Shown here in pieces: positions 7,045-58,776 of a DNA stretch of 64,000 nucleotides. A program made the position numbers and the translations under genes. The DNA lies in NCBI GenBank assembly GCA_964016885.1, contig OZ024753.1:17484001-17548000 (forward strand). Reading direction: 5' to 3'. Numbering within the stretch: the stretch's first letter is position 1; the number at the start of each line of letters is the position of its first letter. The notes beneath the pieces were generated by a model. The model saw only the letters and a list, made by a program, of their open reading frames with translations, had not been told where the DNA came from and made no database searches. The stretch is from Eledone cirrhosa (taxonomy: Eukaryota).

Positions 7045-7612
7045 AAAGGTTAGCTTTGCCTTTTATCTTTACGGGGTCGATAAACTAAACTATCAGTAAC
7101 GTTCTGGGGTCGATTTAAGCAACTTTCTCCTCTCCCCCTCTACAATTGTTGGTCTGGTACCTAATCAGATACCTTGCCTTTCATCCTTAAGGGGTCGATA
7201 AAATAAAGTACCAGTAATACGCTGGGATAATTGCTGGCCTTGTGCCAAAAGTAGAAACAATTATTTAATAATATATATCGGACGCCATGCTTTCCAGCAT
7301 AGTTACGTCCCTTTATGATCTGAGTTCAAATCCCGCTGAGGTTGACTTTGCCTTTCATCCTTACGGGGTCGATAAAATAAAGTACCAGTAATGCACTGGG
7401 TAATTGCTGGCCTTGTGCCTAAAAGAAGAAACAATTATTTAATAATATATATCGGACGCCATGCTTTCCAGCATAGTTACGTCCCTTTATGATCTGAGTT
7501 CAAATCCCGCCGAGGTTGACTTTGCCTTTCATCCTTAAGGGGTCAATAAAATAAAGTACCAGTAATGCACTGGATATTTGCTGGCCTTGTGCCTAAAGTA
7601 GAAACAATCATT
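7045..7612 (+). mobile_element. Tandem cluster of ~4 partial copies of the common ~190-bp SINE
   Basis: Repeated GCCTTTCATCCTTACGGGGTCGATAAAATAAAGTACCAGT...GGCCTTGTGCC..AGTAGAAACAATTAT; B-box-like GAGTTCAAATCCC. Confidence 0.85.
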
Positions 7613-8013
7613 TAATAATATATAAACAAATCACCGTTTCACTATTATGAGAGATCATATGTTGTTAATTAAATAGTGTATATATATGATATATGATAGA
7701 GGATTAAGGCAGTCATAAATAGCCTCAAACTGACATACATAATTTATAGTAATTATGACATAACCTTTGCTACTAAATACTTAAGCGTTTAGTATATCTC
7801 TGATACTGATGTTAATGGAGGCTTGCTATACACACATGCATACACATACGCACACATTCATGTATGTATGTATGTAAATATAATCTTTTATCTATATTTA
7901 CCTACCTAACCACATACTAACCTATATGTGTACCGAACTCCTTGAATAGATAGCTGTCTATAAAATGTCATCTACCTTCAAACAACATACGTTTATATAT
8001 AATTCAGATTATA

Positions 8014-8385: not shown

Positions 8386-8690
8386 GTAATAATAATAATA
8401 ACAATACAAGGACGAATAGTGAAGCCTTCATTACGTTTATTGGTTGGTGGCGCGCGTTTCGCTATTGATCAGCTCAAGGTTCGATCTGTATCGATCTGGC
8501 CTGACTCTGGAATCAAAAGCTCGTCGGACATCTGTTGTAATGACAGAATAAATATACATGGCATATAAAAACTTTAACGTTCATATGTGGGTCAGCTTCT
8601 GTTGTTTTGAATGGTGGGTTAATTGTGAGTGTATATATATATATATATATATATATACTCTGTGATAGTATATATATATATATATATATA

Positions 8691-9205
8691 CTCTCCAGAA
8701 ATAGCCGTCGAAACGGCTTGAGCTCTGCCGTCGGGGTCATACTTTTTCCTACTCTGTGAGAGTATATATATATATACTCTCCAGAAATAGCCGTTGAAAC
8801 GGCTTGAGCTCTGCCGTCGGGGTCATACTTTTTCCTACTCTGTGAGAGTATATATATATATATACTCTCCAGAAATAGCCGTCGAAACGGCTTGAGCTCT
8901 GCCGTCGGGGTCATACTTTTTCCTACTCTGTGAGAGTATATATATATATATATATTCTCCAGAAATAGCCGTCGAAACGGCTTGAGCTCTGCCGTCGGGG
9001 TCATACTTTTTCCTACTCTGTGAGAGTGTATATATATATATATATACTCTCCAGAAATAGCCGTCGAAACGGCTTGAGCTCTGCCGTCGGGGTCATACTT
9101 TTTCCTACTCTGTGAGAGTATATATATATATATTCTCCAGAAATAGCCGTCGAAACGGCTTGAGCTCTGCCGTCGGGTCATACTTTTTCCTACTCTGTGA
9201 GAGTA
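8691..9205 (+). repeat. Six tandem ~88-bp units carrying the 3' half of a family A hammerhead, separated by (TA)n
   Basis: Unit ctctccagaaatagccgtcGAAAcggcttgagctctgccgTCggggtcatactttttcctactctgtgagag(ta)n starts at ~8691, 8777, 8865, 8955, 9046 and 9132. Confidence 0.9.
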
Positions 9206-9457
9206 TATATATATATATATATATATATATACTCTCATACACACATACATATATAAAAACATACATAGACACATGACGATTGCTTTATATTGTCTGATTA
9301 TAGCCGTTAAAAAGATCGTCTGAATCCTTCCACCAAGTTTACATCCTCCCATGAGGGTGATCTTTTAATCTAGCAACATATTTACAATGTCTTTGGCACA
9401 AATAACACATATATATCAATACACGCATACATACGTAAATAAATACTTACATACACA

Positions 9458-11298: not shown

Positions 11299-11786
11299 CA
11301 TCTTTTACCGTCCATCTTCCATGCTGTTTAGACACACAGACACACATATATAAATTAAACACACACAACACTTACACACCATACCATACACACATATATA
11401 CACGTTCTGTTGTTTTGTCGTTTTACAGGTTTCGGTCATTAGATAACTGTCATGAAGTGTGTTCTTCTTGAAGGGATTTTGATGCTCCCCTTCTCACTTT
11501 CTTTTCTTTTCCCGCCCAACATCTGTTGCTCTCCATCTATTACTTGACTTCACTTCCTCACCTAGTAATAAACACATATATGAGAGCTGTATCTGGATTT
11601 CAGGAACTGACATTACATGATCACTTTCTGTCACGTGTTTAACAAGGATTTACATTCCTGCATATGACGTAGTGTAAAAAATAAAAGCCATATTTGTATA
11701 CGGCTATCATAACACTCATGCAACACATGTGAAATATGTTTAGATGAAGTGATGCCTGTGCTTGAAACTTTTTTAAATGAAGAAAG

Positions 11787-12118
11787 GCCTTACACTGGAC
11801 CAAACCCACTCTCCCAACAATGGTGACAAGAAAGGTCTTACACTGGACCAATCCCACTATCCCAACAATGGTGACAAGAAAGGTCTTACACTGGACCAAT
11901 CCCACTATCCCAACAATGGTGACAAGAAAGGTCTTACACTGGACCAATCCCACTATCCCAACAATGGTGACAAGAAAGGTCTTACATTGGACCAATCCCA
12001 CTCTCCCAACAATCGTGACAAGAAAGGTCTTACACTGGACCAATCCCACTCTCCCAACAATGGTGACAAGAAAGGTCTTACACTGGACCAATACCACTCC
12101 CAGAACAATGGTGACAGG
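11787..12118. repeat. 48-bp minisatellite (~7 copies) inside a diverged RTE-derived element
   Basis: Unit ggtcttacactggaccaatcccactatcccaacaatggtgacaagaaa; homologous to 9878-9910. Confidence 0.9.
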
Positions 12119-18901: not shown

Positions 18902-20701
18902 TAACTTTGAATAACTTCGAAATGTTTTGGCCAGTATTGGCCCAGGCCATGTCTAACTTAATAGCACCACCTGGCGAAGTCTTTCAATTCAGGATTTGGG
19001 CACCATGGCCCATTCGAGAAGAGAATTACTGTTTGCGGAGACATATCCGGGTGTGGGTGGTTTGTCCGGGATTACTTGGAGGAATTTGTCCAAAGACTTC
19101 TTGAATTTTGTGTGGTCAGTTTCTGTTTTGACGTGTCCTGGTGTGATGTTGAAGAGAGCAGGGCCGATTGAGGTGAAATAATTGTGCCGTATTGTTGTTA
19201 TGAGTTGCGATTTAGATTTTTGAATGGGACGGATAGAACGGGGCCCAAGCCTTGGGTGTATCTTGAAGGCGATGCCAACATCATTTGGGCAGTGATGATG
19301 GAACATTTTCCACATCATGCAGATAATATAACGCTCACGGCGACGTTGGAGTGAGTAAAGTTTCAGGTTTTCTAATCGACCCCAGTAGTTAAGGTCTGAC
19401 ATGCCATCTATCTTTTTCGTGATTGCCCTTTGAGGAGCTTCAAGTTTCATGATACTTTGTTTCGTGTGGGGAGACCACAGTGGACAACGGTATTCAAGGT
19501 GTGGTCGGGCAAAAGTAGAGAAGAGAAGGATAATGGTGTGGGAATCTCTCGACTGGAAGGTTCTGAGGATTCAGGAACACATTCTGCGGGCCATGTCAAC
19601 TTTGCTGCTTATATGCGTGGTCCAGCTTATGTTGCTGTCCACGGTTACTCCCAAGTCTCTGATGTTGTTAGATGCCACGAGAGTTTCCCCGGAGGGAAGG
19701 GAGTACGGGAGTTTTAGAGCATCCTCTTTTCCAAAGTGGATCAGTTCGAATTTGTCTTCGTTCAGTAACATGTTGTTCTTTTCTGCCCATTGGGTAACAG
19801 CCAGTAGGTCTGACTGAAGGCTTATCCGGTCATCCACGCCATTGATGACCTTTTGGAGCTTGGAATCATCAGCGAAAATTTTAATGTTGCTGTGTTTGAT
19901 GATGTCAGTGATGTCATTAATATAGATGATGAAGAGAAGTGGGCCCAACACAGTGCCTTGTGGGACCCCACTACTGACTTTGGCTGGGCTTGATTTGACT
20001 CCCTCAACTACAACATGTTGGGTTCTGTTTGACAGGAAGCTCTTGATCCACTGCAGCAGCTTTCCAGTGACACCAATATTGGACAGCTTTCTCAGTAGAA
20101 TGTTATGATCAACCCTGTCAAAGGCCTTGCTGAAATCAAGGTAGATAACATCAGTGTTGGAACCCTCTCCCAAGGCTCTCAAAATGTCATCAAAGTGATG
20201 CAGTAGCTGCGTCAGGCAATCCCTTCCATTACGGAATCCATGCTGGTTGGAGTTCAGCATATTGTTACTCTCAAGGAAGTGGCTCATTCGCGATCTCACC
20301 ACTCTCTCAAATACCTTAATGATATGAGAGGTGAGTGAGATTGGACGGTAATTCACGGCAAGGGATTTGTTTCCCTTTTTGAAAACTGGGACAACAGACT
20401 GGGATAGAAGGTTTTCTGGCACATATCCAGCATCCAGTGAGTTCCGCCACAGATTGGCAAGAGGAGATGCAAGTTGGTGTTGACACGCCTTCAAGACACA
20501 AGCAGGGAACCTATCGGGACCTACTGCTGAATTATGCTTGATTTCCTTTATTGCCGCCAAGACATCAGGGGCGCCAAACGTTATGTCCGATAAGGTGTAA
20601 TGGGGAGTAACATCGCCGATACAGCCCAGATCGGCCATATCAGGATTGCTGAAAACAGAGCAGTATTGTTTCTGCAGTATCTCACCCATGGTTTTAGCAT
20701 T
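18902..20701 (-). pseudogene. 5'-truncated CR1/L2-type LINE ORF2 (reverse transcriptase plus C-terminus) with one premature stop
   Basis: Motifs [48 protein letters not shown]. In-frame TGA at 19571-19573 is TGG in the 52.6-53.3 kb copy. Both ends abut TA-rich microsatellite. Confidence 0.93.
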
Positions 20702-21563
20702 TATACATATATATGTATGTATATATATATATACATATATATGTATGTATATATATATATATACATATATATGTATGTATATATATATATACATATATAT
20801 GTATGTATGTATATATATATATACATATATATGTATGTATATATATATATACATATATATGTATGTATGTATATATATATATACATATATATGTATGTAT
20901 GTATATATATATATACATATATATGTATGTATATATACATATATATTTCCGTGGAAAAGATAAAGGAAAGAAAAGTGCTTTGTGTATAGTACAGAGCTAT
21001 TTAATTAAATATATAAATATATATAAATGTGTGTGTGTGGGTATATATATATGAACGAACACACACCACACATGTATATATATAATTACACGCGCCCAGT
21101 TAAACATTAATTTTGAATCTTTTAATTCAACGCTTTATTTTGCTCATAATTATAATTAAAATATTTTTATATAATAAACAGTAAATGTAAATCATGTCTA
21201 CGTTGTCCATTTAATTATTTCTAAAAGTTGTAAATATCATTTAGTAGAAGCAAACTAACATTAGTGATATCTTGGCAGATAACGTTTATAAATGAAATTT
21301 TGAAAAAACTAGCCTGAATGAAGCAACGTTTATGAGTGGTTGGTAAATACTGTTGTCACAGATGGCAACATACAAATATTACAACAAAACATTAACTTTT
21401 AAATAATGAATTAAATCTACTGTAAGCGTACTAAAGAGAACAACAGACTCTTTCAAACATAAATATTTATGTATATATACATATATATAGGAAACAGTAT
21501 GACCCCGACAGCAGAGCTCAAGCCGTTTCAACGACTATTTCTGGTTATATGTTTTATGTGTTT

Positions 21564-28151: not shown

Positions 28152-28605
28152 TGTGTGTGTGTGTGTACGGTTTCATTATTTTAAATTTACATCTTGGAAT
28201 TATTTCCCACTGTTATAACGCGTGTTTCGTCAACAAGTGTTTTAGCACGCTTTACTGTAAACCGTATCTTATAAAGACGTATAAACGCCTGAAGACAAGG
28301 TCACAATTTTGAACCCTCTTACATTCTACAGGTATGGTCGATATTGGGCCTTGGGTACCACTTTTGTTATGAATGAACATAAATAATATATATATATATA
28401 TATATGTACACGTACATACATATATGTATACATCACGTACAGTAGTATGTATATATATATACATACATGCACACATATATATATGTACGTATGGATTCAC
28501 CGAACATTTATTATAATGCTCGGTGTGTTTGTAAACAAACATCCCGTATTAAGCCGTAGTATCTAGCAACCATCGTTGCTCGTTTGTTCAACACTGACAA
28601 AGGAA

Positions 28606-28646
28606 CGCTGTACTAGTTTCAAGCTTATTAGCTATCGTCAGCAACG
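28606..28646 (-). ncRNA. Minimal type I hammerhead ribozyme (family E)
   Basis: cgttg-CTGACGA-tagct aata agctt-GAAA-ctag-TA-cagcg. Confidence 0.85.
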
Positions 28647-29005
28647 TATACCTTCCTGCCCGATTGTTGAACGTATATACTTACCTTATGCATATTAGCG
28701 GCTGAGTAGCCCAATTTGCATATCGAGTGGGTTAATCGGCAGGGTGCACCGAAAACGATAAACGGCAAAAATGAAACGAAATTTCATTTCCCACTCTTAG
28801 TACGGCTGTTACTTAAATATAAGTATGTACACGTACATACATATATGTATACAGACGTACAGTAGTATGTATATATATATACATACATGCACACATATAT
28901 ATATGCACCCGGCCGATTAACCCACTCGATATGCAAATAGGGCTACTCAGCCGTTAATATGCATAAGGTAAGTATATACGTTCAACAATCTGGCAGGAAG
29001 GTATA

Positions 29006-29046
29006 CGTTGCTGACGATAGCTAATAAGCTTGAAACTAGTACAGCG
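29006..29046 (+). ncRNA. Minimal type I hammerhead ribozyme (family E)
   Basis: cgttg-CTGACGA-tagct aata agctt-GAAA-ctag-TA-cagcg; palindromic ACTAGT stem III. Confidence 0.85.
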
Positions 29047-29305
29047 TTCCTTTCTCAGTGTTGAACAAACGAGCAACGATGGTTGCTGAACACTACGGGA
29101 TGTTTGTTTACAAACACACCGAGCATTATAATAAATGTTCGGTGAATCCATACGTACATATATATATGTGTGCATGTATGTATATATATATATACATACT
29201 ACTGTACGTCTGTATACATATATGTATGTACGTGTACATACTTATATTTAAGTAACAGCCGTACTAAGAGTGAGAAATGAAATTTCGTTTCATTTTTTCC
29301 GTTTT

Positions 29306-29660: not shown

Positions 29661-30394
29661 CGTATGAACACAGTTCCGACGACGAGTGTTTCAGTTGATG
29701 GAACAATGAAACAGCCGTCTCGTGCAATTAACAGGTAAGTGACTGAGGATTACAGAGACACGAAGACTCTTAATATAATTCTGGGAGAGATTTAGCGTGA
29801 TGTAGGGAATGACATGGCTGGAGCTTTCAATTAGAGGTACAATTCATATTTGCAAGCTGAGTGAACTAGTGTAAGGTGAAATAAAGCGTCTTGCTCAAGG
29901 ACAAAGCGTACTACTGGGAGTCGACCACCGTAACCTTTAAGCCACAACAATATAAAGACTCACAAAATATCTCTTAAATCAATACACCAACTCATGGAGT
30001 CTTCATACAAGTAGATATTTGTGGAAGAAGAATATTTATTACTTCTTCTTCTTCTTGTCGTTTTCACAAGAGTGTCAGTTACAAAACTTGGCTAGATGTG
30101 GTTCCGTTACAGCTGAATACATTGCTGTCATTTCTCATTAGATTCTGCAAAGTCCAATACTGTGCAGGGGTGTTCCAGCAGGGAGCATATCATTTATTAG
30201 TTATATCTTATAACAAACAGGAAGGGAGAAAATAATTGTTTCTACTTTAGGCACAAGGCCAGCAATTAATCAGTGCATTACTGGTACTTTATTTTATAGA
30301 CAAGGAAGGGAGAAAATAATGGGAAACAGAAAGAAGCGGAACGGTGGGGCATCATTTGCACTTCTGGCTAGGTGAAACATCTCAGTTATATCTG

Positions 30395-32510
30395 ATGGAT
30401 GGCTAGGTGATACAGCTGTTATATGCCATGGATGGCTAGGTGATACAGCTGTTATATCCCATGGATGGCTAGGTGATGCAGCTGTTATATCCCATGGATG
30501 GCTAGGTGATACAGCTGTTATATCTCATGGATGGCTAGGTGATACAGCTGTTATATGCCATGGATGGCTAGGTGATACAGCTGTTATATGCCATGGATGG
30601 CTAGGTGATACAGCTGTTATATCTCATGGATGGCTAGGTGATACAGCTGTTATATCTCATGGATGGCTAGGTGATACAGCTGTTATATCCCATGGATGGC
30701 TAGGTGATACAGCTGTTATATCTCATGGATGGCTAGGTGATACAGCTGTTATATGCCATGGATGGCTAGGTGATACAGCTGTTATATGCCATGGATGGCT
30801 AGGTGATACAGCTGTTATATCTAATTGATGGCTAGGTGATACAGCTCTTATATCCCATGGATGGCTAGGTAATAGAGCTGTTATATCCCATGGATGGCTA
30901 GGTGATACAGCTGTTATATCTCATGGATGGCTAGGTGATACAGCTGTTATATCCCATGGATGGCTAGGTGATACAGCTGTTATATCTCATGGATGGCTAG
31001 GTGATACAGCTGTTATATGCCATGGATGGCTAGGTGATACAGCTGTTATATGCCATGGATGGCTAGGTGATACAGCTGTTATATGCCATGGATGGCTAGG
31101 TGATACAGCTGTTATATCTCATGGATGGCTAGGTGATACAGCTGTTATATCTAATTGATGGCTAGGTGATACAGCTGTTATATCTCATGGATGGCTAGGT
31201 GATACAGCTGTTATATCTCATGGATGGCTAGGTGATACAGCTGTTATATGCCATGGATGGCTAGGTGATACAGCTGTTATATGCCATGGATGGCTAGGTG
31301 ATACAGCTGTTATATGCCATGGATGGCTAGGTGATACAGCTGTTATATCTCATGGATGGCTAGGTGATACAGCTGTTATATCTAATTGATGGCTAGGTGA
31401 TACAGCTGTTATATCTCATGGATGGCTAGGTGATACAGCTGTTATATCTCATGGATGGCTAGGTGATACAGCTGTTATATCCCATGGATGGCTAGGTGAT
31501 ACAGCTGTTATATCTAATTGATGGCTAGGTGATACAGCTGTTATATCCCATGGATGGCTAGGTGATACAGCTGTTATATCTAATTGATGGCTAGGTGATA
31601 CAGCTGTTATATCCCATGGATGGCTAGGTAATAGAGCTGTTATATCTCATGGATGGCTAGGTGATACAGCTGTTATATCCCATGGATGGCTAGGTGATAC
31701 AGCTATTATATCTCATTGATGGCTAGGTGATACAGCTGTTACATCTCATGGATGGCTAGGTGATACAGCTGTTATATCTCATGGATGGCTAGGTGATACA
31801 GCTGTTATATCTCATGGATGGCTAGGTGATACAGCTGTTATATCCCATGGATGGCTAGGTAATAGAGCTGTTATATCCCATGGATGGCTAGGCGATACAG
31901 CTGTTATATCTCATGGATGGCTAGGTAATAGAGCTGTTATATCCCATGGATGGCTAGGTGATACAGCTGTTATATCTCATGGATGGCTAGGTGATACAGC
32001 TGTTATATCCCATGGATGGCTAGGTGATACAGCTGGTATATCTCATGGATGGCTAGGTAATAGAGCTGTTATATCCCATGGATGGCTAGGTGATACAGCT
32101 GTTATATCTAATTGATGGCTAGGTGATACAGCTGTTATATCCCATGGATGGCTAGGTGATACAGCTGTTATATCTCATGGATGGCTAGGTAATAGAGCTG
32201 TTATATCTCATGGATGGCTAGGTGATACAGCTGTTATATCTCATGGATGGCTAGGTGATACAGCTGTTATATCTAATTGATGGCTAGGTGATACAGCTGT
32301 TATATCCCATGGATGGCTAGGTAATAGAGCTGTTATATCCCATGGATGGCTAGGTGATACAGCTGTTATATCCCATGGATGGCTAGGTGATACAGCTATT
32401 ATATCTCATGGATGGCTAGGTGATACAGCTGTTATATCCCATGGATGGCTAGGTGATACAGCTGTTATATCTCATTGATGGCTAGGTGATACAGCTGTTA
32501 TATCTCATGG
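30395..32510. repeat. 33-bp minisatellite, ~64 copies
   Basis: Unit atggatggctaggtgatacagctgttatat(ct/cc/gc)c. Confidence 0.97.
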
Positions 32511-34019
32511 ACAACTTGACTAAAACATTGCCGTGGAGAGCAGCCAGTGACACTCGCTACTTCAGCCACGTCCCTCTCGATATGTGATAGACGGAGGATA
32601 CAGGAGGTGGTAATGGCGGCCGGCCGGTTCGGAAGTGGCCGTATTAATCCCGCTATTTAGTTAACTATATATCATTCTGATGTTTTATAGGAAACTAGAT
32701 ATGTCGGCCACATTTCCACCGTGAATGCAAAAGTCTTTTTACCAAAACTTTTGTAATGTACTTTGGACAAGATGTATACAAATCCTAGAATAAAGAGGAA
32801 GAATATAGTTAGAAACAACCTTAGAAGGTTGGCCTGCTTAACAATGATTTTTTATTAGGGAACCAATGCAATCATGAGGACGGTTTGACTATGAGTCCTG
32901 CACATGGGTCCACATTCGCTACTTTCCGTATGAGTAGCGAGAGAAATAAGATTATTCCTAGACATAAACACATCATATATACTTGGTGTATTGATGGCGT
33001 ATCTACCGGGATTGAGGCCGACTGTCAGGCAGTTGGATTGCAAAGAACTCGAAAGTACTTCCTGCTTTAAAGTACCCGCAAAGTTTAGACATAAGTTTAA
33101 ACCAAAACATAACCCTAATGTGATTAAAGAATTGGCTGTATGTCTATATCTGTCTCTCTGTCTGTCTATAGAACGCACACATACACACGTACACACACAC
33201 ACACACGCACTCACACATGCATGTACACACACTCACACTCTAACACGTGCATGCGTACCACGCACACACTTACGCACTCACACATGCATGCAAACACACA
33301 CAAACATACACGTGTGTGTGTGTGTGTGTGTGTGAATCTGTGTCTTTCCATAGGAAACTGATTGAATACAATTGTGGTACTGTTTAACATTTTTTATTAT
33401 ATGGTATTTTATTATAGGACCTGATATTTAGCTTGGAAAAATATCTTTTCTAAATCTATTTATATTCTGTAAATCGAAGTTCTAAATCAAACATCATTGT
33501 AGTCTTTAGCTATGTTCTATATAATGTAATCTAACATTATGTAAGCCTACGAAGATTTCAGGCGACTGATATTGATAAATAGAAATGGAATATATCTAAA
33601 ACTATCGAATCCTATTGTAACTCAAACATAATTGTAGGAATCTTGTGCCAAGAATACATGTATTATTCATTTGCAAATCTGGTAATATTTTATTTTTGAA
33701 TTCTTCATATATAATATATTGGAAAATAATAATGATATATCATCGTGATGGTAACGAAACATTTTTGGCACAAAAGTAAATTTATTTCTGGAAGATATAT
33801 TCGAATTATGAATTTCATTGTGGACTTGCTCTTCCACATACACTTGGTTAGCTCGTAATAGTGTTCTTTATTTTAGTAAATCAATTCTATTATCAAATAA
33901 AGTTGCATTACTGCATGGCTGTTAGATAGAATCACTTGCAGAATACAATGGTTTATTCCTATAAACATCTGGATAATATTGTGGTGTGCGTTTATATAAC
34001 AATATATGTGGTGAGAACT

Positions 34020-35280
34020 ATTAAACTATATACAATAAGAGGTCTATATAACTATATATATAGTGAGAGATCTATATAACAATATATATAGTGAGAGGTC
34101 TATATAACTATATAGTGAGAGGTCTATATAACTACATATATATAGTGAGAGGTCTATAAAACTACATATATGTAGTGAGAGGTCTATATAACTACATATA
34201 TATAGTGAGAGGTCTATATAACTATATATATTGTGAGAGGTCCATATAACTATATAGTGAGAGGTCTATATAACTATATATATAGTGAGAGGTTTATATA
34301 ACTATATAGTGAGAGGTCTATATAACTATATAGTGAGAGGTCTATATAACTATATAGTGAGAGGTCTATATAACTATATATAGTGAGAGGTCTATATAAC
34401 TATATAGTGAGAGGTCTATATAACTATATAGTGAGAGGTCTATATAACTATATATAGTGAGAGGTCTATATAACTATATAGTGAGAGGTCTATATAACTA
34501 TATAGTGAGAGGTCTATATAACTATATAGTGAGAAGTCTATATAACTATATAGTGAGAGGTCTATATAAATATGTAGTGAGAGTTCTATATAACTATATA
34601 TATATAGTGAGAGGTCTATATAACTATATATATAGTGAGAGGTCTATCTAAGTATATATTGAGAGGTCTATATAAGTATATATTGAGAGGTCTATATAAC
34701 TATATAATGAAAGGTCTATATAACTATATAGTGCGAGGTCTATATAACTATATAGTACGAGGTCTATATAACTATGTAGTGAGAGGTCTATATTACTATA
34801 TAGTGTGAGGTCTATATAACTATATAGTGTGAGGTCTATATAACTATATATATTGTGAGAGGTCTATATAACTATATAGTGAGAGGTCTATCTAAGTATA
34901 TATTGAGAGGTCTATATAACTATATAATGAAAGGTCTATATAACTATATAGTGCGAGGTCTATATAACTATATAGTGCGAGGTCTATATAACTATATAGT
35001 ACGAGGTCTATATAACTATATAGTGAGAGGTCTATATAACTATGTAGTGAGAGGTCTATATAACTATATAGTGTGAGGTCTATATAACTATATATATAGT
35101 GAGAGGTCTATATAACTATATATATTGTGAGAGGTCTATATAACTATATAGTGAGAGGTTTATATAACTATATTGTGAGAGGTCTATATAACTATATATT
35201 GTGAGAGGTCTATATAACTATATAGTGAGAGGTCTATATAACTATATAGTGAGAGGTCTATATAACTATATATTGAGAGG

Positions 35281-35282
<2 letters not shown>
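34020..35282. repeat. ~24-bp minisatellite, ~50 copies
   Basis: Unit gtgagaggtctatataactatata with variable TA number. Confidence 0.97.
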
Positions 35283-52613: not shown

Positions 52614-53320
52614 TAACTTTGAATAACTTTGAAATGTTTCGGCCAGTATTGGCCCAGGCCATGTCTAACTTAATAGCACCACCTGGCGAAGTCTTTCAAT
52701 TCAGGATTTGGGCACCATGGCCCATTCGAGAAGAGAATTACTGTTTGCGGAGACATATCCGGGTGTGGGTGGTTTGTCCGGGATTACTTGGAGGAATTTG
52801 TCCAAAGACTTCTTGAATTTTGTGTGGTCAGTTTCTGTTTTGACGTGTCCTGGTGTGATGTTGAAGAGAGCAGGGCCGATTGAGGTGAAATAATTGTGCC
52901 GTATTGTTGTTATGAGTTGCGATTTAGATTTTTGAATGGGACGGATAGCACGGGGCCCAAGCCTTGGGTGTACCTTGAAGGCGATGCCAACATCATTTGG
53001 GTAGTGATGATGGAACATTTTCCACATCATGCAGATAATATAACGCTCACGGCGACGTTGGAGTGAGTAAAGTTTCAGCTTTTCTAGTCGACCCCAGTAG
53101 TCAAGGTCTGACATGCCATCTATCTTTTTCGTGATTGCCCTTTGAGGAGCTTCAAGTTTCATGATACTTTGTTTCGTGTGGGGAGACCACAGTGGACAAC
53201 AGTATTCAAGGTGTGGTCAGGCAAAAGTAGAGAAGAGAAGGATAATGGTGTGGGAATCTCTCGACTGGAAGGTTCTGAGGATCCAGGAACACATTCTGCG
53301 GGCCATGTCAACTTTGCTGC
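52614..53320 (-). pseudogene. 5'-truncated CR1/L2-type LINE 3' fragment
   Basis: Near-identical to 18902-19608; embedded in (TA)n. Confidence 0.92.
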
Positions 53321-53361
<41 letters not shown>

Positions 53362-54264
53362 ATACATATATATATTCTATATATATATATTTTATATATA
53401 TTATTTCTGAAGACGGCATATATGTGTGTTTGGTATGTATATTTAATCTTGATAGTTTGTATAATTTTGTATAATTTTGTACATAGATCTGTTGAATATG
53501 CATGCCAATTCTAACACATATATATCCTAGAAACGATCGTTAAATAATGAACTTTTTTTGTTTAATATAAGGAACTGTTTCATTGTTTTATTCATTATTT
53601 TTTTAATATTTTATCTTGACTCTGTATTCCGTTTATCTTTCACCGAAAGTGATTTTTCATTGCATCTCTTCTTTCCATGATATCCGGACTACATTGAGTT
53701 CTTCATACGGATTGGACACTACCGTAAACTCTTGGTAGATTTATCTACATATATTTTATATATATATATTTTATATATATATATATTTTATATATATATA
53801 TTTTATATATATATATATATTTTATATATATATATATTTTATGTATATATTTTATATATATATATATTTTATATATATATATATTATATATATATTATAT
53901 ATATATATTATATATATATATTTTAAATATATATATATTTTAAATTTATATATTTTAAATATATATATTTAAAATATATATATATATATATATTTTAAAT
54001 ATATATACATATATTTTAAATATATATATATATATATTTTAAATATATATATATATATATTTTAAATATATATATATATATATATTTTAAATATATATAT
54101 ATATATATTATAAATATATATATATATTTTAAATATATATATATATATTTTAAATATATATATATATATTTTAAATATATATATATATATATATTTTATA
54201 TATATATATATATATTATATATATATATATATTTTTTATATATATATATTTTATATATATATAT

Positions 54265-54295: not shown

Positions 54296-57147
54296 GGAAT
54301 GATTAGTACCCCGACGGCTGAGCTCAAGCCGTTTCGACGGCTAATTCTGGACTAAATGAACATGTTTATCCTGGTATATGAATAGCTGAGCTTCTCAGGG
54401 GGTAAAAGTGATTGTCACAAGGATTGGTCAAAAGTTTGTTTTTGAGACACATAATTCTATCATGGCAATTTGTGGAAGGAAGGGGTAGCTGAACCTGCCA
54501 GTAGAAGAAAGAGGGAGAGGGAGTGGAGGAAACCCAGTCGTGCGTTGATAGTGCTAACTACAGCAGGGCAGGAGGTCAAGCAAGTATACTAGGGAGGGGG
54601 AGGATGTCGAAACAATAAGTAAATCAATATGGAGTAAATATATAGAAGAATACCAAGAATGTTAAAAATATAAAAAAACAATTTCTGGTTACTATTCCCT
54701 AACCAGAGTCATCAAGTCTCTCACTGGTACTGCTAAACTATAGAAAAGTTTACTAGGTGGGACGGAAAATTCATCCAGTTTGACATAGAGAGTTACTATG
54801 CTTCAATTACCTTACCGCTACTTACGGCTGCCTTGGACTTTGCCGAGACACTTTCGCCCATCGCCGACCAGGAAAGAAACATCATCCTCCACGCCAGGAA
54901 GACAATCCTACTTTTCGACAACTCTAAATGGATAAAGAGCGTTCCCGACTCACCCTTCGACGTCAGCATGGGCGAGACGGATTCGGCTGAGGTCACAGAT
55001 TTTATAGGATTATTTTTACTAGATAAACTCACCGATGTTTTCTGCATTCGGCGGTGGATTGTACCGTGATGATGGGCTCCTTACCCTTAAAGGGTACAAC
55101 CCCAGTAGTACAGACCGGGTCCGTAAACAATTAATCAGCTTCTTTTGCGACTGGAGATTTAAAATAACCCTACAAACGTCCCTGACCCGAGTAAACTTCC
55201 TGGACGTTACCCTTGACCTCGATAATGGTCTGTACTACCCATACAGGAAACCCAACGACAACCTGCACTACATCCACCGCCGGTCAAACCATCCTAGGAA
55301 CATCACCAATAACCTGGTTAAAAACATCTCCCTCCGCATATCTCGTTTGTTCGCTAATGAGCAGATATTCGAGGAACATGCGCCTTATTACAACCAGTCC
55401 CTCAAGCGGAGTGGCTTCCAGGAGGAAATATCCTACTGTCCAGCTTCCATTAGCGGAACCAGCAGGCATCCTCCCGTGTAAGAGTTGGCTCTGGACAGTA
55501 AGCTCCAAGTGAGATCATAGGTAATATTGTTATCTTTGAGGTCCCAGATATGACCCGAAAGTGTGGTGGCGTGACGCCGGACCGGGTTTCGGAAAGTATG
55601 TCTGTGTTGGTATAGCCGGGTCTTGAAGTCACATGCGGTTAATCCTATATAAGCTTTGTTGGAGCTTACTGTCCAGAGCCAACTCTTACACGGGAGGACG
55701 CCGTCCGTGCAATTTATGCTCGGAGGAAACTTTAAAAATGCTGTTTTCGACGGACCAACTCCTAAACAAGATAGACGAACTGGTAACTGCATGCAAACAC
55801 AGATTGCGTAGGACTTACCTCGCCCTCAAACCCCATAATGACCCGGGGGGGGGGGGGGGTAGACAATGGCTGTAACGCCCCACTTGCCGACTTTGTAATG
55901 GGTAACCCCTGCTTGCAAAGGTAGACGTAAGAACTTCTTTTATATCTTTTTATCGTATCCTCTATATTTCCTTCTTCCCCCATCCCTTCCTAGTCCTTCC
56001 ACCCCAGTCCTCCTTCTTTGTCGTCGTCCTTTTCACTTTCTCGCCCACCCGAGGCAGCCCCTAGGTCCTTTGTAGCCTCAGTACCCCCATCCCTATTCTA
56101 TGATAGAATTGGCCGACTCCGCTATTTATAGCAGATGTGATAGACCCCAGATACTTGCTTTCTTATCCGATGGCTGCCCCATTTCCGTGCTTTCTACATT
56201 TCTTAGTGGTATCTCTGCTTTAATTTCTCGTATATCAGTATTTTTTTTTTTGGGGGGGGGGGTTCTGAATTAATTTTCCGTATCAAATTTTTCGTATACT
56301 TCGTGCGAGCATTTATGTAGTTTGCACTATAATTTTCGTATCGTAGCGGCACCCTTAGAGATAGTATTAGTATTCATTTTCGGGATTCTGAATTATTATT
56401 TCGTATTAGTTTATTTTTTGCACTGGGTGGTTGCTGGTCTTGTGCCTAGGGTAGAAACATTTATTTCGTATTAGTTTCGGACTCTGAATTATTATTTCGT
56501 GGTAGTTTCTTTAGTATTTTGGCCCCCCACTTGTTGACCTGTCACCGTAAGATATACTCGGTTGATTACTACTAACTCTTAAAATTGTCTCACTACAATT
56601 CCGTCCCACCTAATAAACTTTTCTATAGTTTAACAGTACCAGTGAGAGACTTGATGACTGTGGTTAGGGAATAGTAACCAGAAATTGTTTTTTTTAAATA
56701 TTTTTAACATTCTTGGTATTCTTCTATATATTTACTCCATATTGATTTACTTATTGTTTCGACTTCCTCTCCCTCCCCCTCCCTAGTATACTTGTTTGAC
56801 CTCCTGTCCTGCTGTAGTTGGCACTATCAACGCACGACTGGGTTTCCCCCACTCCCTCTCCCTCTTTCTTCTACTAGCAGGTTCAGCTACCCCTTCCTTC
56901 CACAAATTGCCATGGTAGAATTATGTGTCTCAACAACAAACTTTTGACCAATCCTTGTGATGATCACTTTTACCGTATATGGAATTACCTCCTGAGAAGC
57001 TCGGCTATTCATATACCAGGATAAAAATGTTCATTTAGTCCAGAATTAGCCGTCGAAACGGTTTGAGCTCAGCCGCGGGGTCCTACTCGTTCCTATTACC
57101 CACTCTAGTACCCTAAGTATTGAGTACTTACCACCTTTCCTTCGTTA
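54293..57147 (+). mobile_element. Penelope-like element (5'-truncated, rearranged) with ~480-bp inverted termini
   Basis: Arms 54293-54767 and 56599-57096 plus a ~50-nt 3' extension; encloses RT and GIY-YIG coding remnants; hammerhead-like motif in each arm; flanked by (TA)n. Confidence 0.88.
54797..55875 (+). pseudogene. Penelope-like RT plus GIY-YIG endonuclease, frameshifted and internally inverted
   Basis: FDVSMGETDSAEV, GLYRDDGL, VNFLDVTLDL, YRKP, SNHP. EN segment YIGLT..FKTRLYQH..F..ATTLS.HIW is on the minus strand (55470-55660); CNLC.EE..LLNK..EL..CKH is on the plus strand. Confidence 0.88.
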
Positions 57148-57158
57148 TTTTATATATA

Positions 57159-57236
<78 letters not shown>

Positions 57237-57274
57237 ATATATATATATATTTTATATATATATTATATATATAT

Positions 57275-57905
57275 ACGGCTTAAACGGGATGTTTGTTTAC
57301 AAACACACCGAGCATTATAATAAATGTTCGGTGAATCCATACGTACATATATATATATGTGTGCATGTATGTATATATATATACATACTACTGTACGTCT
57401 GTATACATATATGTATGTACGTGTACATACTTATATTTAAGTAACAGCCGTACTAAGAGTGGGAAATGAAATTTCGTTTCATTTTTGCCGTTTATCGTTT
57501 TCGGTGCACCTGGCCGATTAACCCACTCGATATGCAAATTGGGCTTCTCAGCTGTTAATATGCATAAGGTAAGTATATACGTTCAACAATCTGGCAGGAA
57601 GGTATACGTTGCTGACGATAGCTAATAAGCTTGAAACTAGTACAGCGATACTTTGTCAGTGTTGAACAAACGATCAGCGATGGTTGCTGTACACTACGGC
57701 TTAATACGGGATATTTGTTTACAAACACACCGAGCATTATAATAAATGTTCGGTGAATCCATACGTACATATATATGTGTGCATGTATGTATATATATAC
57801 ATACTACTGTACGTCTGTATACATGTAAGTATGTACGTGTACATACTTATATTTAAGTAACAGCCGTACTAAGAGTGGGAAATGAAATTTCGTTTCATTT
57901 TTTCC
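57275..57905 (+). mobile_element. Family E retrozyme-like element, ~1.5 tandem monomers of ~420 bp
   Basis: Direct repeat 57277 vs 57698; flanked by (TA)n. Confidence 0.82.
57607..57647 (+). ncRNA. Minimal type I hammerhead ribozyme (family E)
   Basis: cgttg-CTGACGA-tagct aata agctt-GAAA-ctag-TA-cagcg. Confidence 0.85.
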
Positions 57906-58776
57906 ATATATATAAAATATATATATATAATTTATATATATATATTTTATATATATATTTTATATATATATATACTATATATATATTTTATATATATATA
58001 TATTTTATATATATATATATTTCATATGTATATATATTTTATATATATATTATATATATATATATTTTATATATATATTATATATATATATATTTTATAT
58101 ATATATTTTATATATATATTTTATATATATATTTTATATATATATATTATATATATATATATATATTTTATATATATATATATATTTTATATATATATAT
58201 ATATTTTATATATATATATATATTTTATATATATATATTTTATATATATATATTTTATATATATATTTTATATATATATATTTTATATATATATTTTATA
58301 TATATATATATATTTTATATATATATTTTATATATATATATATATATTTTATATATATATTTTATACATATATATATATTTTATACATATATATATATTT
58401 TATATATATATATATATTTTTTATATATATATATATTTTATATATATATATATATATATTTTATATATATATATATATTTTATATATATATATATATTTC
58501 ATATATATATATATTTTTTATATATGTATATATTTTATATATATATACATATATATATTTTATATATATATATTTTATATATATATATATATTTTATATA
58601 TATATATATATTTTTTATATATATATATATATATTTTATATACATGTAAAGTTATATTTAAAATTGTTGGGTTACAACTAGTAAATATTTATAACTGATA
58701 TAAAAGCACTCGACAAATATTTGGAGTATATTTACAATATTAAATAAATGGAAAACTATATTTATAAAACCATATT

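What the first reader, a model, noticed from the sequence alone, without database searches (positions are those of the whole stretch)
57275..57905. ~420-nt retrozyme-like monomer (family E) in partial tandem with an intact hammerhead
Seen: about 1.5 head-to-tail monomers with no coding capacity and one canonical minimal hammerhead (CUGACGA...GAAACUAGUA). The same monomer, with a different start point but the same internal junctions, occurs at 28.4-29.3 kb. Inference: circularly permuted partial tandems are what reverse transcription of a circular or concatemeric RNA would produce, as in retrozymes. A non-autonomous Penelope derivative with pseudo-LTRs is the alternative explanation.
Basis: partly seen in the sequence, partly recalled or inferred. 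Interest (0 to 1): 0.85.

Follow-up and report, generated by a model that had tools for sequence, protein, structure and literature searches.

The report
Hammerhead retrozyme with Penelope-type ends
This is one of many thousand copies of a 422-base non-coding repeat with a predicted self-cutting RNA motif, whose copies end at two fixed sites inside TA repeats, the mark of likely copying by a Penelope-type jumping-gene enzyme, possibly from an RNA circle, a route proposed for such elements but not yet shown.

Summary
Real: 1.5 units (period 421) with one type I hammerhead, non-coding; 9,756 exact ribozyme-core matches genome-wide. But copies are not free permutations. 133 of 158 arms end 3' at one of two sites about 59 nt apart, mostly in (TA)n; 5' ends scatter. 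In inverted two-armed insertions (28.4-29.3 kb is one) the two ends are one of each site in 34 of 35. That is the Penelope-like (PLE) 'tail on one end' footprint, also shown by autonomous PLEs of this genome. No copy adjoins a PLE ORF and no homologous PLE terminus was found, so it is a non-autonomous non-LTR retrozyme likely moved in trans; partner unknown. 101 of 104 arms copy through the cleavage site, and units of one insertion usually share variants: the template was a circle or an uncleaved multimer, not a cut linear monomer. Mixed-subfamily arrays argue against always one circle. No RNA data; cleavage untested. The scan noted this same family on other DNA (e1-8665316). New member of a known kind; useful because it gives a short substrate for testing PLE and retrozyme copying.

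The parts
57274..57905 (+). Single-armed insertion, 1.51 units; 5' end is a truncation point (unit position 53 counted from the cleavage site), 3' end at the long (tail) site B
57276..57696 (+). One full 421-nt unit (family consensus 422 nt)
57607..57647 (+). Type I hammerhead: helix I 57607-57611 with 57643-57647, core 57612-57618 and 57633-57636, helix II 57619-57632 (U-U plus 3 bp), palindromic helix III 57636-57641; predicted cleavage after 57642
   Evidence: sequence; pair counts in 134 copies, helix I pair 3 U-G 113, A-U 9, G-U 6; helix III forms a 6-bp intermolecular duplex
57436..57495 (+). Tail: stretch between the two fixed 3' end sites A (57436) and B (57495) as placed on the first unit; likely the two RT start sites
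   Evidence: contigs of run X1 run off into (TA)n at these two places (41 and 36 contigs)
57340..57425 (+). AT-rich long hairpin just 5' of site A in the predicted fold
   Evidence: consensus positions 119-204
57532..57539 (+). Octamer-like motif, possible part of an internal promoter (label recalled, untested)
   Evidence: sequence, position in consensus
57151..57273 (.). (TA)n target tract, 5' side
57906..58642 (.). (TA)n target tract, 3' side
28393..28904 (-). Second locus, left arm, 1.21 units, 3' end at site A, hammerhead at 28641
28905..29304 (+). Second locus, right arm, 0.95 units, 3' end at site B, hammerhead at 29011

Best explanation
This is a copy of an abundant non-coding 422-nt hammerhead repeat whose insertions end at two fixed sites inside (TA)n, and which is likely reverse-transcribed into the genome in trans by a Penelope-like RT/GIY-YIG enzyme, probably from a circular unit-length RNA that its predicted ribozyme would help make. 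Steps: (1, inferred) tandem loci are transcribed; (2, predicted) two hammerheads pair through the palindromic helix III, cut after the GUA, and the monomer is ligated; (3, strongly inferred from ends) a PLE enzyme cuts both strands of a (TA)n tract and primes cDNA at internal sites A and B, one per DNA end, using a 3-nt TAT match; (4, shown in the copies) synthesis runs through the ribozyme junction and stops at scattered points; (5, inferred) the two cDNAs join by microhomology to give a two-armed inverted insertion, or one is lost, leaving a single arm like 57274-57905. This locus has one hammerhead and cannot release a monomer alone.
For: Fixed 3' ends: 79 of 98 arms and 54 of 60 in two windows covering 19 of 422 positions; 67 of 79 followed by (TA)n. 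One A plus one B end in 34 of 35 two-armed insertions with both ends at these sites, p 2e-9 against a coin. Same footprint in an autonomous PLE family of this genome: 6 long and 3 short ends among 9 printed, tail about 63 nt, L096 two-armed with one of each. Craig 2021 (10.1101/2021.04.23.441226, passages) describes partial tandems, inverted 5' copies, a tail on one end only and (TA)n bias for PLEs; Frangieh 2024 (PMC11167929, passages) shows two internal RT start sites bounding the tail and extension of both strands. Read-through of the cleavage site: 60 of 62, 41 of 42; no depth step there. One template per event as a rule: 13 subfamily sites agree between arms 199 of 217, between insertions 61%; in L219 a variant seen in 1 of 33 loci is in all 9 units of both arms. 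Inversion joints: mean microhomology 2.6 nt in 25 of 31 joints without inserted bases, null 0.77. Circular consensus folds at z -7.5, -5.0 without the AT block.
Against: Circularity is not shown: an uncleaved multimer from a homogeneous array gives the same ends, and PLE protein used unprocessed RNA in vitro, ribozyme mutants included (PMC11167929). Some insertions mix subfamilies between units or arms (L145, L146, L165, L166, L174; L236) and L142 has a two-unit period, so arrays also arise by template switching, in-register addition or later duplication. Ribozyme activity is uncertain: U-U where G-C is usual (PMC4209133, passages), no Rfam match, core no better conserved than background among copies (12 of 964 against 375 of 23,810 non-CpG), and only 1 of 9 predicted Xenopus dimers cleaved in 10.64898/2026.07.22.740005. 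No partner PLE with homologous ends among 80 PLE loci. 25 of 158 arms end elsewhere.
Confidence: 0.58

Rival explanations
1. Same PLE-driven insertion from sites A and B, but the template is an uncleaved linear multimer transcribed from tandem loci; the hammerhead is weak or dispensable and arrays are rebuilt by template jumps, in-register addition to older copies or unequal exchange.
For: Autonomous PLEs make partial tandems this way (PMC11167929; three tandem PLE copies in L212). Mixed arrays; two-unit period in L142. Slight excess of 5' ends at unit positions 387-398, just 5' of the core, could mark a transcript start: 6 against 2.6 expected in set B (window chosen after the fact), 4 against 1.6 in set C, p 0.08.
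Against: 5' truncation alone would shorten arrays every generation, yet young insertions carry near-identical 4.7+4.8 and 3.7+5.0 units (L235, L219); a private variant fills all 9 units of L219; most 5' ends are scattered, not at one start; helix I shows a compensatory change between subfamilies.
Confidence: 0.32
2. The unit is only the pseudo-LTR of an autonomous PLE not yet found; the copies are its 5'-truncated stubs.
For: Ends, inversion and target are those of PLEs; one PLE family of this genome has a hammerhead of the same layout (U-U, 3-bp helix II, 6-nt palindromic helix III; L094, L095, L097, L106).
Against: Upstream of a unit lies another unit, up to 7.5 times, not an ORF end. None of 33 plus 19 free 5' flanks runs into a shared element body or a PLE ORF in sense. 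No homology to termini of 80 PLE loci. Only contig C1 was sampled in depth and only the best-scoring PLE loci were seen.
Confidence: 0.07
3. One reading: a free circular RNA is primed at random points, giving circularly permuted copies, with no PLE-specific step.
For: 5' ends are scattered and arms cross the junction.
Against: 133 of 158 3' ends at two sites; A/B complementarity 34 of 35.
Confidence: 0.03

Closest known systems
Metazoan non-LTR retrozymes (Cervera and de la Pena 2020, PMC7229834, passages read; Li, Clavereau and Pollet 2026, 10.64898/2026.07.22.740005, parts 1-3 of 5 read)
   Same: Non-coding 150-450 nt tandem unit, low GC (37%), one type I hammerhead per unit, predicted highly paired circle, thousands of copies, PLEs in the same genome; both papers name PLEs as the likely mobiliser.
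   Different: Most insertions here are 0.4-2 units; ends are fixed at two sites and arms are inverted pairs, which the passages read do not describe for retrozymes; no homologous PLE terminus found here (the preprint found some in Xenopus); expression, cleavage and circles untested.
Endonuclease-positive Penelope-like elements, insertion units with pLTR, inverted 5' copy and tail (Craig et al. 2021, 10.1101/2021.04.23.441226; Frangieh et al. 2024, PMC11167929; passages read)
   Same: Partial tandems, 5' truncation, inverted arm, tail on one end only, AT-rich/(TA)n target, hammerhead in the repeat.
   Different: No ORF; tail about 59 nt rather than 30-40; both start sites match the target over 3 nt (TAT), whereas the anole enzyme started at sites not homologous to the cut DNA.
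Short-helix-III type I hammerheads that act as dimers (Cervera and de la Pena 2014, PMC4209133, passages read)
   Same: Helix III of 2 bp with a palindromic 2-nt loop; intact core.
   Different: U-U instead of the usual G10.1-C11.1; helix II shorter than in the minimal PLE hammerheads described there.

Membership tests
Non-LTR retrozyme | Short non-coding unit in head-to-tail copies | tested here: met
   422 nt, up to 7.5 units per arm, longest Met frame 51 aa
Non-LTR retrozyme | Type I hammerhead motif in each unit | tested here: met
   core and helices in 134 copies, one compensatory pair; Rfam silent
Non-LTR retrozyme | At least two consecutive hammerheads at some loci | tested here: met
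   spacings of about 422 nt; not at this locus, which has one
Non-LTR retrozyme | Self-cleavage of the RNA | not testable with these tools
   needs in vitro transcription
Non-LTR retrozyme | Expression as linear and circular monomer RNA | not testable with these tools
   no run on record as RNA was offered
PLE-mobilised element | Two fixed 3' ends bounding a tail, tail on one end of two-armed insertions | tested here: met
   133 of 158 arms; 34 of 35 pairs
PLE-mobilised element | 5' truncation and inverted 5' arm | tested here: met
   31 and 19 inverted joints in 59 and 33 loci
PLE-mobilised element | AT-rich or (TA)n target | tested here: met
   67 of 79 canonical ends
PLE-mobilised element | Terminal sequence shared with an autonomous partner | tested here: inconclusive
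   none among 80 PLE loci, a small part of 10,594 and 37,248 candidates
Autonomous PLE | RT plus GIY-YIG ORF inside the repeat unit | tested here: not met
Plant LTR retrozyme | Type III hammerhead in LTRs, 4-bp target duplication | tested here: not met
   hammerhead is type I, ends lie in (TA)n, no LTR pair

The most novel reading that the evidence does not exclude
These insertions are a genomic record of twin-primed rolling-circle reverse transcription: a PLE enzyme pair binds a ribozyme-made 422-nt RNA circle, starts one cDNA at site A and one at site B from the two ends of a break in (TA)n, and runs round the circle, which would explain both how animal retrozymes spread and why PLE insertions carry an inverted arm with a tail on one end only.
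Probability: 0.4. Interest if true: 0.75.

Novelty: new member of a known kind. Interest (0 to 1): 0.5.

Why it matters
That PLEs move animal retrozymes, and that a circle is the template, are proposals in the papers read (PMC7229834; 10.64898/2026.07.22.740005), the latter stating that the mechanism remains to be worked out. Here the ends give direct footprint evidence for the first, with a strict one-A-one-B rule, and name the two start sites on a 422-nt RNA. With the in vitro PLE assay of PMC11167929 this is a compact substrate to test circle against linear template and coupled two-end priming. Searches for retrozyme with octopus or cephalopod listed only a PLE paper and an LTR-element paper; retrozymes with Penelope, target-primed, circular RNA and insertion, from 2021, listed none. 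The library lacks most subscription papers, and Repbase or Dfam entries were not searchable.

Tried and rejected
Rfam over the whole window listed only microsatellite-driven miRNA matches among the 150 of 376 shown; over 57440-57760 no hammerhead. Linear folding of the 65-nt ribozyme region is not better than shuffles (z -0.96). Sequencing-run search: no RNA holder listed. Runs of organisms B and C hold relatives (one 533-nt contig with 17 differences over 364 nt), kind of run unknown. Partner search by homology: 30 GIY-YIG loci, 20 long-ORF PLE loci, 30 loci of the family upstream in the window: only separately inserted copies of the unit. The PLE-like element at 54296-57150 is a neighbour, not the body: it ends in its own terminus and a TA tract, best match to the unit 18 nt at E 0.63. 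Three loci join the unit's 5' end directly to an inverted end of another element (L137, L155, L228); L155 fits short-plus-long, L137 is ambiguous, L228 is long-plus-long, two different families are involved, so they do not name a partner; a genome-wide count of such joints was not obtained. A>G excess on the ribozyme strand (private changes 22 against 11 T>C; all 89 against 29, inflated by subfamily sites) is too weak to claim RNA editing. Concordance figures used mis-numbered sites and were replaced. Pfam and PDB gave nothing for the 788-aa ORF of L209, so its PLE label rests on recalled RT and GIY-YIG motifs. Target-site duplications cannot be read in (TA)n. Supplements of the bioRxiv preprint (species and family tables) were not seen and could list related elements.

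Full report
Observation. The window holds a 421-nt unit repeated 1.51 times from 57274 to about 57905 between two (TA)n tracts. It has one hammerhead core at 57612-57642 and no coding frame. The second locus at 28.4-29.3 kb is two opposed arms, 28393-28904 on the minus strand and 28905-29304 on the plus strand, with a hammerhead in each. The window lies in a 3.0-Gb genome, G000; earlier scan notes call it a cephalopod, which I did not test. The 32-nt core has 9,756 exact matches, control 0; 48 of 85 ribozyme copies in my sample match it exactly, so about 17,000 units is a rough estimate. A young subfamily has 2,048 exact matches of its own 31-mer.

The ribozyme. Type I: helix I of 5-6 bp, a 3-bp helix II behind a U-U pair, and a 2-bp helix III whose sequence is a palindrome able to form a 6-bp duplex with a second copy. 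That is the dimer-type layout described in PMC4209133 (passages), except for U-U where G-C is usual. In 134 copies helix I pair 3 is U-G 113, A-U 9, G-U 6 times, a two-sided change between subfamilies. Against: no Rfam match, no excess conservation of the core among inserted copies, and predicted retrozymes often fail to cleave (1 of 9 in the preprint). Activity is predicted, not shown.

Ends of the copies. Positions are counted from the predicted cleavage site. Set B: all 58 insertions behind the first 100 places of a 33-mer that lies outside the ribozyme, plus the two window loci; one duplicate locus and four locally duplicated arms were dropped. Set C: 33 loci of the young subfamily further along contig C1 (one place at 10.9 Mb and four of five places of one long array not fetched). 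3' ends fall at site A (214-223) or site B (268-276) in 79 of 98 arms in B and 54 of 60 in C; 67 of 79 are followed by (TA)n. Contigs of run X1 run off into (TA)n at 57436 and 57495, the same two sites (X1 may be the assembly's own sample). 5' ends scatter. Of 50 inverted joints, 35 have both outer ends at canonical sites: 34 are one A and one B, 1 is A-A (L152, where the arm resumes after an expanded AT tract and ends at B), none B-B; 15 have one irregular end. The joints show more microhomology than random junctions (mean 2.6 against 0.77 nt; 25 of 31 joints of set B without inserted bases). The 30 best hits and 25 ribozyme-selected loci show the same pattern and are not counted.

What makes such ends. 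Craig et al. (passages) list partial tandems, 5' truncation, an inverted 5' copy, a tail on one end only and (TA)n bias as PLE features. Frangieh et al. (passages) show that a PLE protein cuts and extends both strands and starts reverse transcription at two internal sites that bound the tail. This genome has many PLEs. One family with GIY-YIG and RT motifs has short and long ends about 63 nt apart in (TA)n, and its copy L096 is two-armed with one of each; two other families have tails of about 50 and 80 nt (lengths read by eye). The unit therefore behaves as a PLE substrate. It is not a PLE terminus as far as tested: no homology to 80 PLE loci and none of 52 free 5' flanks continues into a shared body or a sense ORF. 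The partner is unidentified.

The template. A cut linear monomer would stop synthesis at the cleavage site. It does not: 60 of 62 and 41 of 42 arms that reach it cross it, and depth shows steps at A and B but none there. Units within an insertion differ by 1.8% (same arm) and 2.5% (two arms) against 5.0% between insertions (one large array weighs heavily). Subfamily sites agree in 199 of 217 arm comparisons against 61% between insertions. Young insertions such as L219 and L235 have 9-10 near-identical units over two arms, and L219 carries a variant of its own in all 9. A circle explains this most simply, and explains why arrays do not shrink despite truncation. But a homogeneous source array would look the same, six insertions mix subfamilies, L142 shows a two-unit period, and the anole protein used uncut RNA in vitro. 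A weak excess of 5' ends just before the core (6 against 2.6; 4 against 1.6) could be a transcript start or an RT pause. I put circle at a little under two to one over linear multimer.

Comparison and verdict. By anatomy it is a non-LTR retrozyme (PMC7229834, passages; preprint, parts 1-3 of 5); cleavage and circular RNA, two defining features, could not be tested. Both papers propose PLE mobilisation; the end rule here is footprint evidence for it. I formed this reading before consulting scan notes; one search then showed that the scan had reported the same 422-nt family on other DNA (e1-8665316) with ends 59 nt apart, which my own counts confirm; its 'probably circular' remains untested here too. 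New member of a known kind, interest 0.5: not surprising as a class, but it makes the copying step directly testable.

Noticed in passing
window 10680, 10978, 14876, 22104, 40749, 61487 (+); 58834, 41828 (-): Further hammerhead-like motifs of at least two other repeat families, with AT-rich helix I and palindromic helix III.
   Followed up: no
window 1231 (+), 39846 (-), 27681 (-): More hammerhead-like cores of other sequence.
   Followed up: no
window 54296-57150: Rearranged, broken PLE-like copy with inverted terminal repeats, a short left and long right end in (TA)n; its family has 37,248 candidates and many open frames of about 785 aa, no Pfam or PDB match, no hammerhead by my scan.
   Followed up: partly
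window 8675-9219: Six copies of an 86-nt unit resembling the 3' end of that PLE-like family, each with a TA run.
   Followed up: no
L137, L155, L228: The unit's 5' end is joined directly to an inverted 3' end of another PLE-type element; co-insertion of two RNAs or insertion with deletion.
   Followed up: partly
L094, L095, L097, L106: A young PLE family whose terminal hammerhead has the same layout as this one (U-U, 3-bp helix II, 6-nt palindromic helix III) but no sequence homology; a candidate partner.
   Followed up: partly
L165, L146, L236: Subfamily switches inside one arm fall between unit positions 253 and 47, with the subfamily that looks older at the 5' side in two cases; possible in-register addition of a new copy to an old one.
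   Followed up: partly
window 57648 and 57650: Two changes private to this copy lengthen helix I of the hammerhead.
   Followed up: no
L221 (G000:C1 near 53.36 Mb): Long, degenerate array of the same unit that runs past both locus ends; satellite-like expansion.
   Followed up: no
window 18992-21004 (-) and 52704-53510 (-): Broken LINE-like RT frames (motifs recalled, not scanned).
   Followed up: no
window 30365-32511, 11780-12116, 34038-35282, 7174-7624: Minisatellites of 33, 48, 24 and 174 nt.
   Followed up: no
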